Translations under genes and position numbers: made by a program | Assembly (NCBI RefSeq): GCF_038025025.1 | Contig: NW_027117349.1 | Location: 1,364,001-1,428,000, forward strand | DNA length: 64,000 bases | Source of the DNA: Phyllosticta citribraziliensis | Taxonomy: Eukaryota | Direction of reading: 5' to 3' | In this document: positions 40,269 through 43,676 of the stretch, in pieces | How the letters are laid out: each line of letters starts with the position of its first letter | How positions within the stretch are numbered: position 1 is the stretch's first letter | Notes under the pieces: model-generated | Database searches by the model: none | Seen by the model: only the letters and a program-made list of their open reading frames with translations | Told to the model about the DNA's origin: nothing

Positions 40269-41404
40269 CAAAATTAATAACGACTGGGCTGTCAAAAGGA
40301 AATAGAGCTTGGGCCAGCGACGATGGAGGGGTATGATGGTAGATGCGGAGTCGGCTTTGCTTGCGGTATTTTGGCGTCTGCGTCTTCCACTGCCATTCTA
40401 CGCACACGTCGCTTGTATGCATGGCTTGAATCATGACCACTTTCTTGGCTTTTCCACCGCGGTATCTACTTGTACAGTACCTACAACAATTCGGTTCTCT
40501 AATAGCTTGTACTCACTTAGAGATGAACAAACAACTCTTCTCCATTCGGTTTATCCAGAGCAAAAAGCTACGAGGAAAGCTTCGCGGTGATATGGTGCTA
40601 ATGCCGCTAACGCCGGCATGGGTATTGTTGCTCGACGACGGGAGTGAACGGCACGCGGACCGGATCGGACGGACGGACGATGTCGTCTGCTCGGCTCTCT
40701 TGTCCTTGGTTGTTGTAGGCTTGACACTTGCTGGGTGGGTTTGAATGGTTGAAAGGGGGTGCTCCCGCCAAGAGACTGATCATGTTAGAGGTTGGGGTTG
40801 AGTCTGCGAGCGATGGGCCGAGTCTCTCAAGAGATCTTTCGGTACGCATACGCAGGGCTCTGACGTTGATTCTGTCGAGTCTTCTCGACTGAATCTTCTT
40901 CAATGCATTATGGCGGAGTAATGTGTAGAGGAATGCCATATTTGGCCGATCTTGCAGAGCGAGCTAATGTATCAGATTGTTGGAGAGCTCCGTGCGCGAG
41001 AATGAAACAACCGTGCGCAGGTATGAAATCGCTTCCGACGTTCGACGTTGGACGGCCAGCGGGTTGCCGTTTTGGGCGTTGGCTGTGATTCTGCGATGGT
41101 CACTTTTTCGGACTAGCGTCTCACGTGACCGAATTCCTGGCTCCGCCGAAGCAGCTCTTCGACGCCGACGTCGACGCATCTTTGACCAAGGGACCACCAT
41201 CAAACCTATCGCCGCCGCACGCCAATTCTGCTCAATCGTACGTCTACCCTCGCTCCGGAGTCCTCTGGCGTCGCCCCAACATCCTGGATCGCCCTCGACC
41301 CGACGCAACCCTGCTGCCCGCACGATCTCAAGCTCCATCATCGACCTTCAACCGGAACCGCGAGCGCTAATACACTGTGAACCACGCAGGGCATCACCGT
41401 AGCC

Positions 41405-41915
41405 ATGTCTGCTGCACGCTTCTTCCGCCCTCTTACCCGCGCCGTCCAGCGCCAGGCGTTCGCCGCGCCTGCCAGCGCCCGCACCGGCCTCCGCGTTGCG
41501 CCCTTCACGCCCAACGTCAACGGCCAGGCCCAGCAGCCTCTTGTTGAGCGCTCCGTCGCCGAGAAGGCCCAGGTACGGAGACTCTCCCTATCATTACAAT
41601 TTGAGTTCCGTTGGTGCGGTCAGGCTCCAGACGAAAAAGAGCTCCGGTGCCGGAACACACGGGGTGGTGCTTCACCTCACCGGATGAGACCGCAGCAGAC
41701 TATTCAAAGGCTGGAGAACCATTGCTGACAGCATATGCGCACCCCGACAGACCGTCCTCTACGCCGGCATGCCCCAGCTCGTCCCCTTCTACTGGGTCAA
41801 CGAGGCCACGTTCGGCTTCATCATCCTGCCCTCGCTCATCTACGTCTTCTCCAAGTACCTGCTGCCGCAGAACGTGCGCCGCATGTGCGCCCGCCTCTTC
41901 ATCAGCAAGCTCTAA
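41405..41915 (+). CDS. atp8: Nucleus-encoded mitochondrial ATP synthase subunit 8 with presequence (exons 41405-41572, 41751-41915)
   Basis: Exon 2 encodes TVLYAG-MPQLVPFYWVNEATFGFIILPSLIYVFSKYLLPQNVRRMCARLFISKL* (48 aa from MPQL). Exon 1 begins with an Arg/Ala-rich amphipathic leader. Confidence 0.93.
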
Positions 41916-42515
41916 GCGCGAGTCTGCCTCAACACGGACAGCATTTGGGAGAGAGAGGATTGCCACGGGATGGGATATTTCGAGATTGGTTGCTGCTGGC
42001 ATAGCGCGCCCGGCGTGTAGATAATTGCATTGACGCTTGCAATTGAGAGTCTGCGTAGTTTGTGGCTACAGGTTATCGGTGATGCGTTGAATTTGTTTTT
42101 GGGGGATGCCAATGGGGTTGATCTACTGACCCTGATCGCAGCCTTCACGCCTGATCGTCTCCGAATCAGCAGCACGGTAAGTCAACTTCATTCAGGTCTG
42201 TCGAATTCCAGTCTGCAGATTCTGGTCCATTGCGTGGGTCCAAGATGATGCCCAGCGCCTTCTCTCAGACCTCACTCCTTCCTTTTTAGTCAATCTCCTT
42301 GGTCTGAAATCGACCAGCAAGACGGCCGCTGCGAGAACAACAACAAGGATACTGATCATTCACTACGCCCATCTTTTGATCTTGGATCGTTCGTTTGCCA
42401 GCTTACTGGATTGCATCAAAGCACCGAGTCTGCCTTTCACGCCAACCACTAAATCTCTTGCTTCGTCGACTGCAGCGTGTTCGAGACTGGGCAGATTTCG
42501 GCGACGTGTTTCCTC

Positions 42516-43676
42516 ATGTCCGACTCTGAATTCGATGAGCGGGCTATTTGTGAGATCGTTGAGTCGAATCGATCGCCCGAGCCCAAAGACGAAGAGAGCT
42601 ACATGCCCTTTACTACCGGAGCCTTCATTGCCTCGCCACAATACGTTCCGCGGGAGATCCGCAGGGACCTATTCAAAGAGTCGCCTGTCAGGATCGTCAA
42701 CGAATCGATGCCCACAGATTCGCCGCTACACAAAAATGGCAACACTGCAGGAGTCGGCTACTACCTTTTGCGCGTTTTTGCGCCAGATTTGTGGAAACGC
42801 CACCCATGTTCCCCGAGTTGCGAACCTGTGATTTCTCTGCCGGACGGTGTCGCGAACGACGCGCAGCTGAATACCCTGCTCTGGTGGATGCGCGAGTGGA
42901 TGGAAGACGGACTTGACTGGATGGAAGACGGACTTGACTGGATGGAAGACGGACCTGACGTTTCGAACGACGAGGAAATGGATACAGACGACGAGGGAAT
43001 GGATACGGACGAGGAGAAAATGGATACAGACGACGAAAACAACGATGAAAACGACGACGCCGACGACGCGACAGAACAATCAGACTGGCAAGACGACGGT
43101 ATGAGTTCTACCAATTTCTATCTCTATCCTCCGCTGCCTCCGCTCTTCACGCACCCGCTAGACCCTCCACGCACCGCAAAATGGATCGACTGGAACCCCT
43201 GTCCACGGTTGCTCTCCCAGCCACCAGTCTCCGAATCCATCACGGTAACGCTGCTCCCTCTCCTGGGCGCCACCGTCGCCTTAGGCATCAATAGCGCGCG
43301 AAACGAAATAGTCGACATAATACGCGACCTCGTCAGAGAACGGCCACTGCGGGCCGAGGAGCTTGAGGCATTGACCCGCTGTTTAGAGCCCAAGAACAGA
43401 CTATTGCACCGCATCTTCAGCTGCATAGGCGAGCGGTTCAGCCGCCGACGCGTGTTAGGAGGCGACGAACGCGCCTTTTTACTCGAACATTGCGAGCTGT
43501 TGGAGATTGTGTTGCACGTGGCCGAATTCGAGCGGATTGTGAATGAGAAGAGCTACTTGTCCAAGCTAATTCACGGGGAGGACTTGGACACGATTGTTCG
43601 CGAGGCGCGCGACGAAAAGATATTGGGATGGTTGCAGGGGTTGCCTGAAGAACTAGAAGAACACGAGGAATGGTGA
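42516..43676 (+). CDS. Hypothetical acidic protein with internal 7-aa repeats
   Basis: About 1.2-kb ORF. No family recognised; the start is uncertain. Confidence 0.6.
   Translation: MSDSEFDERAICEIVESNRSPEPKDEESYMPFTTGAFIASPQYVPREIRRDLFKESPVRIVNESMPTDSPLHKNGNTAGVGYYLLRVFAPDLWKRHPCSPSCEPVISLPDGVANDAQLNTLLWWMREWMEDGLDWMEDGLDWMEDGPDVSNDEEMDTDDEGMDTDEEKMDTDDENNDENDDADDATEQSDWQDDGMSSTNFYLYPPLPPLFTHPLDPPRTAKWIDWNPCPRLLSQPPVSESITVTLLPLLGATVALGINSARNEIVDIIRDLVRERPLRAEELEALTRCLEPKNRLLHRIFSCIGERFSRRRVLGGDERAFLLEHCELLEIVLHVAEFERIVNEKSYLSKLIHGEDLDTIVREARDEKILGWLQGLPEELEEHEEW
42897..43035 (+). repeat. Two adjacent in-frame 21-bp minisatellites (WMEDGLD x3; MDTDDEx x3)
   Basis: TGGATGGAAGACGGACYTGAC at 42897, 42918 and 42939, followed by ATGGATACRGAC units. 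Confidence 0.9.

What the first reader, a model, noticed from the sequence alone, without database searches (positions are those of the whole stretch)
41405..41915. Functional-looking nuclear atp8 with an acquired mitochondrial presequence
SEEN: after a phase-0 intron (41573-41750), exon 2 encodes a 48-aa peptide from MPQLVPFY to SKYLLP...RLFISKL*. A 62-aa leader precedes it, and its first 40 residues are Arg/Ala-rich with no acidic residues. Codons are GC3-rich, so this is not a recent NUMT. The ORF track misses it. KNOWN: Atp8 is normally mtDNA-encoded in fungi and starts MPQL, and some Dothideomycete mitogenomes lack atp8/atp9. INFERENCE: a completed endosymbiotic gene transfer. The Gly, Pro and Ser in the TM segment (FGFIILPSLI) may lower hydrophobicity for import.
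Basis: partly seen in the sequence, partly recalled or inferred. Interest (0 to 1): 0.8.

Follow-up and report, generated by a model that had tools for sequence, protein, structure and literature searches.

The report
Nuclear gene for mitochondrial ATP8
This fungus keeps the gene for ATP synthase subunit 8 in its nucleus, spliced and fitted with a mitochondrial import leader, which is real but already published and annotated for related fungi.

Summary
Confirmed. The spliced product is 110 aa: a 62-aa leader plus a 48-aa core matching fungal Atp8 end to end (PF05933, 76 bits). It is the only atp8 match in an assembly lacking mtDNA, so mtDNA loss is inferred from two other Botryosphaeriales.

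Not new: nuclear atp8 with a targeting peptide was published for Stemphylium (PMC5626475); a 106/110-identical Phyllosticta citricarpa protein is annotated; this scan noted it twice on other genomes.

Added here: the phase-0 intron 6-7 codons before MPQL is shared by 8 of 8 nuclear-type loci, pointing to one old Dothideomycete transfer. A transmembrane Pro occurs in 90 of 94 leader-type cores and 0 of 50 mitochondrial-type cores, fitting matrix import and re-insertion. The cleavage junction is conserved but lacks an MPP arginine and resembles the Cox1 C-terminus (weak lead). Ascodesmis (Pezizomycetes) may hold a second transfer. Import and cleavage were not tested.

The parts
41176..41237 (+). 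Non-coding first exon (5' end not fixed; contigs begin at 41176, 41190 and 41199); no ATG in 41101-41237
   Evidence: table 8
41238..41389 (+).
   Evidence: skipped by contigs of X1, X2 and X8 (table 5); sequence
41390..41572 (+). Exon 2: 15 nt of UTR, then ATG at 41405 (GCCATGT context) and 56 codons of Arg/Ala-rich presequence-like leader
   Evidence: no second match to this leader in the genome
41573..41750 (+). Phase-0 intron, 178 nt, GTACGG..CAG, branch-like GCTGAC at 41724-41729; position shared with other nuclear atp8 loci
41751..41768 (+). Six-codon linker before the ancestral Met; conserved pattern L-x-[SA]-[AG]; presumed processing site
   Evidence: L at -4 in 97 of 119, S/A at -2 in 116 of 119, A/G at -1 in 117 of 119
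41769..41915 (+). Atp8 core, 48 codons plus TAA; GC3 = 1.0
   Evidence: PF05933 1-48/48, 76.2 bits; yeast Atp8 match
41829..41831 (+). Codon for Pro21 of the core, inside the transmembrane segment; shared by nearly all leader-bearing copies, absent from mitochondrial-type copies
   Evidence: 90 of 94 versus 0 of 50 distinct cores
41916..42030 (+). 3'UTR, end not determined (a relative's contig is last matched at 42030; the X1 contig runs past 42400)
   Evidence: tables 7 and 8

Best explanation
This is the organism's working gene for ATP synthase subunit 8, moved from mtDNA to the nucleus long ago in a Dothideomycete ancestor. SHOWN: a three-exon gene is spliced and reads as a 110-aa precursor whose last 48 residues are a complete Atp8. 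INFERRED: the cytosolic precursor enters through TOM/TIM23 by its Arg-rich amphipathic leader. Atp8 has its N-terminus in the intermembrane space (recalled), which a stop-transfer at TIM23 would not give, so the protein most likely passes fully into the matrix and is re-inserted from there by Oxa1 (conservative sorting). The transmembrane Pro21 and the lowered hydrophobicity would keep it from arresting in TIM23. The leader is probably removed in two steps: MPP near one of the early arginines, then a second cut at the conserved L-x-[SA]-[AG]|MPQL junction by an unidentified peptidase, restoring the ancestral Met. Odds: working nuclear gene about 0.93; conservative sorting about 0.75; exact cut before Met about 0.65; one Dothideomycete-wide origin about 0.8.
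For: Exact GT..AG skips in contigs of 3 of 4 runs laid, from three studies; the X1 contig has no differing letter. PF05933 end to end. One copy in 31.4 Mb. Core identical to P. citricarpa while the leader differs at 4 of 56 places. 329 proteins with E <= 0.001, best 120 listed, spanning many Dothideomycete genera. Acceptor AG 18 nt (7) or 21 nt (1) before the core ATG in 8 of 8 GC3-rich loci and at 18 nt in 0 of 72 AT-rich loci; an in-frame leader exon with a GT donor in 7 of those 8. The mtDNAs of Macrophomina phaseolina (PMC8451660) and Neofusicoccum parvum (PMC4366305) list no atp8, and N. parvum has the nuclear form. Pro disfavours TIM23 arrest (PMC2171449). Pro21 in 90 of 94 versus 0 of 50; median hydrophobicity 1.84 versus 2.26.
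Against: This organism's mtDNA was not seen. All runs are contigs; X1 and X2 are only guessed to be RNA, and X8, recorded as RNA, is a relative with several differences. No import, cleavage or proteomic data. Pro is not required: yeast Atp8, with no transmembrane Pro, rescues an atp8 deletion when given a targeting sequence (PMC3420929), and 4 of 94 leader-type cores plus Ascodesmis lack Pro21. The nuclear cores share one ancestry, so the Pro and hydrophobicity contrasts are about one event, not 94; the 50 mitochondrial-type cores come from the best 80 of 534 loci and have no known taxonomy. No Arg at -2 or -10 in 68 of 68 full leaders, and at -3 in only 7, so the second peptidase is unexplained. 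The tree has 48 columns, an unsettled bootstrap, and one AT-rich core inside the nuclear group.
Confidence: 0.92

Rival explanations
1. Dual state: the nuclear gene is expressed, but this species still has a working mitochondrial atp8, as some fungi keep both forms of atp9.
For: mtDNA is absent from the assembly. Macrophomina and Neofusicoccum keep atp9 in mtDNA, while this genome has a nuclear atp9 with a leader, so dual states are plausible in this order. Extremaceae carry nuclear atp8 although related Mycosphaerellaceae keep it in mtDNA.
Against: Both Botryosphaeriales mitogenomes I could read about lack atp8; all reported Pleosporales mitogenomes lack it.
Confidence: 0.05
2. Silent NUMT or pseudogene, with the leader a chance upstream frame.
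For: The ancestral ATG is still in place, and import is not shown.
Against: GC3 of 1.0 in the core, two introns spliced, leader and intron position conserved across orders, intact frame in all listed homologues.
Confidence: 0.01
3. Mechanistic rival: MPP cuts once and the mature subunit keeps a 20-35 residue N-terminal extension; the linker is conserved for structure, not for cleavage.
For: No MPP-type Arg near the junction. Arg residues lie early in the leader (6 in the first 30).
Against: Leader length and middle vary freely (47-127 aa, median 53.5) while the last four residues and the Met are held, as expected of a cleavage site.
Confidence: 0.3
4. Historical rival: nuclear atp8 arose by several separate transfers within Dothideomycetes rather than one.
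For: Leaders of Extremaceae and Trypetheliales differ visibly from those of Pleosporales; presequences resemble each other by composition; no shared neighbours were found in the 8 short nuclear loci.
Against: Same intron place and phase in 8 of 8 loci; Gln at -7, the mark of a CAG acceptor read through, in 39 of 48 ORF-caller proteins against 7 of 71 NCBI gene models; shared Pro21; 32 of 35 leader-type cores group at 94/81.
Confidence: 0.2

Closest known systems
Nuclear atp8 of Stemphylium lycopersici, locus TW65_04673 (Franco et al. 2017, PMC5626475; passages read; S1 Fig and S2 Table not seen)
   Same: Nuclear copy longer than the mitochondrial form, N-terminal extension predicted as a targeting peptide, atp8 missing from mtDNA.
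   Different: Pleosporales, not Botryosphaeriales. The passages I read do not mention introns, splicing evidence, the transmembrane Pro or the junction motif. Leaders of Pleosporales are about 52 aa against 62 here.
Annotated orthologues in Phyllosticta citricarpa (KAK7545294.1, 110 aa) and P. capitalensis (KAK8246197.1), and in Lasiodiplodia, Neofusicoccum, Botryosphaeria, Diplodia, Aplosporella
   Same: Same length and build; P. citricarpa is 106 of 110 identical with an identical last 54 residues.
   Different: Four conservative leader changes. Database names are automatic and no function was tested.
Nuclear ATP9 genes of Pezizomycotina (Podospora Atp9-5 and Atp9-7; PMC3420929 and 10.1101/2021.03.17.435722, passages)
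   Same: F0 subunit moved to the nucleus, with a presequence and a less hydrophobic membrane segment; early gain followed by patchy loss.
   Different: Different subunit. The nuclear atp9 of this genome has Arg two residues before its presumed mature start (my reading), which atp8 lacks.
Engineered allotopic yeast Atp8 (PMC3420929 passages)
   Same: Targeting sequence plus recoded atp8 works from the nucleus.
   Different: It needed no change in the membrane segment, whereas the natural version carries Pro21 and a polar residue in place of Phe35.

Membership tests
Fungal ATP synthase subunit 8 (PF05933) | Score above the curated cut-off over the whole profile | tested here: met
   76.2 bits against 26.1, positions 1-48 of 48
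Fungal ATP synthase subunit 8 (PF05933) | MPQL start, one hydrophobic segment, basic C-terminal tail | tested here: met
Fungal ATP synthase subunit 8 (PF05933) | Assembled into complex V | not testable with these tools
   needs proteomics or structure
Functional mitochondrion-to-nucleus transfer | On a nuclear contig, nuclear codon use, spliceosomal introns | tested here: met
   contig C12 between a fungal transcription factor and an M28/PFF1 peptidase; GC3 1.0; two GT-AG introns
Functional mitochondrion-to-nucleus transfer | Spliced transcript | tested here: met
   3 of 4 runs laid skip both introns; contigs only; two of the three are guessed to be RNA
Functional mitochondrion-to-nucleus transfer | Mitochondrial targeting presequence | tested here: inconclusive
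   composition and amphipathicity fit and are conserved (59 of 68 leaders have no acidic residue in the first 30); no MitoFates or TargetP available, no import assay
Functional mitochondrion-to-nucleus transfer | Mitochondrial copy lost | tested here: inconclusive
   no cox1 or atp6 in the assembly, so no mtDNA to inspect; two relatives lack it by the literature
Dothideomycete nuclear atp8 (Stemphylium type) | Leader + six-residue linker + core with Pro21, intron at the leader/linker boundary | tested here: met
   the Stemphylium protein itself was not fetched, other Pleosporales stood in
Recent NUMT or pseudogene | AT-rich codons, no introns, disrupted or silent | tested here: not met
   GC3 1.0 against 0.06-0.23 in 72 mitochondrial-type loci; spliced
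Single-step MPP substrate (pattern recalled: Arg at -2, -3 or -10) | Arg at the expected place before the mature start | tested here: not met
   0, 7 and 0 of 68 full leaders; none in this protein

The most novel reading that the evidence does not exclude
The linker is a fossil of the donor mtDNA. atp8 moved as part of a cox1-atp8 in-frame fusion, carrying the last Cox1 codons (L-P-L-Q-S-G type), which act as an unrecognised mitochondrial processing site also used for Cox1 tail extensions and cox1/cox2 fusions. Filamentous ascomycetes then gained nuclear atp8 twice or very early: once at the base of Dothideomycetes (fixed with Pro21) and once in Pezizomycetes (Ascodesmis: other leader, no Pro, same junction). 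For: Ascodesmis has PLQSG exactly before the Met; one assembled protein pair (P0011, P0266) shows a Cox1-type tail fused in frame to Atp8; cox1 lies shortly upstream of atp8 in 4 of 72 mitochondrial-type loci; a profile from 43 linkers without PLQ ranks the Cox1 tail 3rd of 23,422 five-mers; a LAGLIDADG-Atp8 fusion has a like junction (P0145). Against: the idea was formed after seeing the data; two unrelated five-mers rank higher; P0011 is a tandem, possibly artefactual assembly from one run; none of the 4 loci is fused; convergence on a protease site explains the motif equally well.
Probability: 0.15. Interest if true: 0.6.

Novelty: new member of a known kind. Interest (0 to 1): 0.25.

Why it matters
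The gene itself is ordinary for its class. The family is still useful. It is a natural, long-running version of allotopic ATP8 expression and shows which residues changed after the move (Pro21, loss of Phe35). It explains why mitogenome papers keep reporting atp8 as missing in these fungi; two recent ones (passages of PMC8956966 and PMC11167856) note the absence without mentioning a nuclear copy. The conserved junction without arginine points to a processing step that is not yet assigned to a peptidase. The spread into Extremaceae and Ascodesmis suggests the transfer is older, or more frequent, than a Pleosporales-only event.

Tried and rejected
Own-genome searches for atp6 and cox1 found nothing (controls rang in 9 of 14 each), so mtDNA loss could not be tested; contig C18, first suspected to be mtDNA, is GC-rich nuclear DNA with an intron-bearing atp9. 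No donor gene for the leader was found in the genome (one match, itself), but presequences diverge fast. No shared neighbours between 24 kb of the window and the 8 nuclear-type loci (loci of 1-5 kb, so weak). Pattern scans for a cox1-type linker fused to atp8 in viral and prokaryote collections gave 0 matches; these collections are not expected to hold fungal mtDNA. PDB search of P0011 matched only Atp8, not Cox1. A bacterial promoter scan was the wrong tool and found nothing. An alternative acceptor AG at 41731, right after the branch site, is out of frame and not used by any contig. Translation from the internal ATG alone was set aside: the first ATG of the spliced message is 41405. The Mann-Whitney p-values are not used as evidence because the rows are related. 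No structure or complex prediction was run. Look-ups of earlier findings by sequence and by place gave nothing relevant. Paper searches found no text on Phyllosticta atp8, the shared intron, Pro21, Ascodesmis or a cox1-derived linker; I judged most hits from listings only, and the library lacks most subscription journals.

Full report
VERDICT. The window carries a spliced nuclear gene for ATP synthase subunit 8 with a presequence-like leader. The nearest named proteins are from Phyllosticta (Botryosphaeriales), so I take the organism to be of that genus (inference).

ANATOMY. The product is 56 + 6 + 48 = 110 aa. The first 40 residues hold 6 Arg, 9 Ala and no acidic residue, with an amphipathic stretch at residues 3-17. 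All 48 core codons end in G or C. The core matches PF05933 from end to end at 76.2 bits, cut-off 26.1; the leader matches no Pfam family. It aligns without gaps to yeast Atp8 in the PDB. Upstream lies a fungal transcription factor gene and downstream an unnamed ORF and an M28/PFF1 peptidase.

EXPRESSION. Of 24 runs listed I laid 4. Contigs of X24 run through both introns and carry many differences, as DNA of relatives would. The X1 contig has no differing letter. Limits: all are contigs, X1 and X2 are only guessed to be RNA, and X8 is a relative. There is no ATG in 41101-41237, so 41405 is the first start of the spliced message.

COPY NUMBER AND mtDNA. PF05933 has one match in the 31.4-Mb assembly. 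Atp6 and Cox1 have none, so the mtDNA is simply not in the assembly and its loss of atp8 cannot be checked here. From papers: the Macrophomina phaseolina mitogenome lists atp6 and atp9 but not atp8 (PMC8451660, whole text); N. parvum has atp9 but not atp8 (PMC4366305, passages), and N. parvum has the nuclear form. Of 7 matches to the atp9 family I read one, on C18: an intron-bearing nuclear atp9 with a leader (my reading); the other 6 were not examined.

WHAT IS KNOWN. Franco et al. 2017 report a nuclear atp8 in Stemphylium lycopersici, longer than the mitochondrial form and with a TargetP-predicted targeting peptide (PMC5626475, passages; section 14 whole; supplements not seen, and S1 Fig may show the intron or junction). 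PMC11881002 states the transfer for Shiraia-like species (passages). PMC7225605 finds atp8 missing in 9 of 20 mitogenomes (passages). PMC8956966 and PMC11167856 note its absence in all reported Pleosporales (passages); Mycosphaerellaceae keep it (PMC7999263, passages). A P. citricarpa protein of 110 aa differs from this one at 4 of 56 leader residues and at none of the last 54. Two earlier notes of this scan, on other genomes, reached the same verdict; I had read the Franco passages before seeing them.

SPREAD AND ORIGIN. A profile of five homologues found 329 proteins at E <= 0.001 among 8000 scored; the best 120 were listed. Named ones include Alternaria, Exserohilum, Lophium, Venturia, Verruconis, Lasiodiplodia, Eremomyces, Aulographum, Coniosporium, Trypethelium, Bogoriella, Vermiconidia, Extremus and a Pyrenula MAG (assignment to orders is from my knowledge). 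Eight have GC3 of 0.69-0.94 and 72 have 0.06-0.23; I call these nuclear-type and mitochondrial-type. An AG lies 18 nt before the core ATG in 7 of 8 nuclear-type loci and 21 nt before it in the eighth, against 0 of 72 at 18 nt. Seven of the 8 have an in-frame Arg-rich leader exon with a GT donor 52-67 nt upstream; the eighth has only 160 nt upstream. Among proteins called without intron models, 39 of 48 have Gln at -7, as a CAG acceptor read through would give, against 7 of 71 NCBI models (I sorted the ids by hand from the source column). A tree of 77 cores groups 32 of 35 leader-type rows at 94/81, with one long-branch AT-rich row inside. Ascodesmis nigricans and two unnamed rows group apart at 93/91. 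With 48 columns and an unsettled bootstrap this is weak alone; the shared intron is the stronger sign of one old transfer. The Ascodesmis protein (105 aa, 2.97-Mb contig) has a different leader, and an ORF call of the same gene follows it for 18 residues before the Met, so its intron, if any, lies elsewhere. That may be a second transfer. A wider search (168 representatives, 150 listed) showed leader-only matches only among exon fragments of the same gene, so no donor for the presequence was found; none was found in the own genome either.

MECHANISM. Shown: gene structure and splicing. Inferred: import by the leader through TOM/TIM23. Atp8 is N-out, C-in (recalled; one search gave no paper I read on it), so full passage to the matrix and re-insertion by Oxa1 is the likely route. 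Meier et al. show that a Pro in a transmembrane segment disfavours TIM23 arrest (PMC2171449, abstract and first part of results). Of 94 distinct cores from 119 proteins (P0003-P0122 without P0011), 90 have Pro at position 21; 0 of 50 distinct mitochondrial-type cores have any Pro in 13-28. Median peak hydrophobicity is 1.84 against 2.26, and this core (1.67) lies below all 50. Phe35, present in 49 of 50 mitochondrial-type cores, is mostly replaced by Arg, Lys or Asn. Against over-reading: these rows share ancestry; some leader-type cores are as hydrophobic as mitochondrial ones (P0100, P0120, P0122); several lack Pro21; and yeast Atp8 works from the nucleus with only a targeting sequence (PMC3420929, passages). 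Pro21 is thus a likely optimisation, not a requirement. The junction is conserved (L at -4 in 97, S/A at -2 in 116, A/G at -1 in 117 of 119) while leader length runs from 47 to 127 aa, yet Arg stands at -2 in 0, at -3 in 7 and at -10 in 0 of 68 full leaders. I therefore favour an MPP cut upstream and a second cut at the junction by an unidentified peptidase.

A LEAD. Several linkers read P-L-Q-[SA]-[AG], and Ascodesmis has PLQSG. Cox1 in 4 of the 72 mitochondrial-type loci ends in, or runs through, LPLQS and lies 168-686 nt upstream of atp8 (L031 read as Cox1 by my knowledge of the sequence, not by a family scan). P0011 and P0266, from one run, show this tail fused in frame to Atp8, in a tandem form that may be an assembly artefact. 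A profile from 43 distinct linkers without PLQ ranks PLQSG 3rd of 23,422 five-mers from 271 ORFs, behind the start of a 74-aa ORF (probably Atp9, recalled) and a minus-strand ORF. I put a Cox1 origin of the linker at 0.15.

SCORES. Working nuclear atp8: 0.92. Novelty: new member of a known kind. Interest 0.25. Most novel reading not excluded: probability 0.15, interest 0.6 if true. My paper searches found nothing on the shared intron, Pro21, Ascodesmis or the linker, but most hits were seen as listings only and the library is partial.

Noticed in passing
window 41238-41389: A 152-nt 5'UTR intron of the atp8 gene, skipped in contigs of three runs.
   Followed up: yes
window 41748-42400 and beyond: The 2,946-nt X1 contig joins the spliced atp8 exons to sequence running past 42400, with about 2 kb more beyond the stretch laid; read-through into, or overlap with, the ORF at 42516-43676 is possible. 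A contig across two genes does not show one transcript.
   Followed up: no
window 42516-43676: A 386-aa ORF with no Pfam match and an acidic middle built from two 21-nt tandem arrays (42897-42959, 3 copies; 42967-43036, 3.3 copies).
   Followed up: partly
L009 (G000:C18, about 111850-112370, minus strand): Nuclear atp9 with a leader and one apparent intron, so both small F0 subunits have nuclear genes in this genome.
   Followed up: partly
protein P0267 (Ascodesmis nigricans): Leader-bearing Atp8 in a Pezizomycete on a 2.97-Mb contig, with a different leader, no Pro21, low hydrophobicity and the junction PLQSG; a possible second transfer.
   Followed up: partly
proteins P0113, P0120, P0288 and P0099: Leader-bearing Atp8 in Vermiconidia, Extremus and Saxophila, relatives of fungi that keep atp8 in mtDNA, and in a Pyrenula MAG whose leader resembles the Dothideomycete one but whose core lacks Pro21.
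   Followed up: partly
protein P0145: A LAGLIDADG domain fused in frame to an Atp8 core through a linker like that of the nuclear copies; one short contig.
   Followed up: partly
L031, L035, L038, L068: Gene order cox1 then atp8 in four mitochondrial-type loci; in L038 the Cox1 frame continues about 110 codons past its usual end.
   Followed up: partly
L062 3016-3159: A divergent AT-rich atp8 core that falls inside the nuclear group in the tree on a long branch; probably an artefact, not checked.
   Followed up: no
L088, L089: AT-rich 55-aa atp8 cores in flanks of raised GC (0.34, 0.38); possibly recent NUMTs.
   Followed up: no
window 41120-41180: A CACGTG motif and a GC-rich palindromic stretch just upstream of the first exon; not tested against chance.
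   Followed up: no
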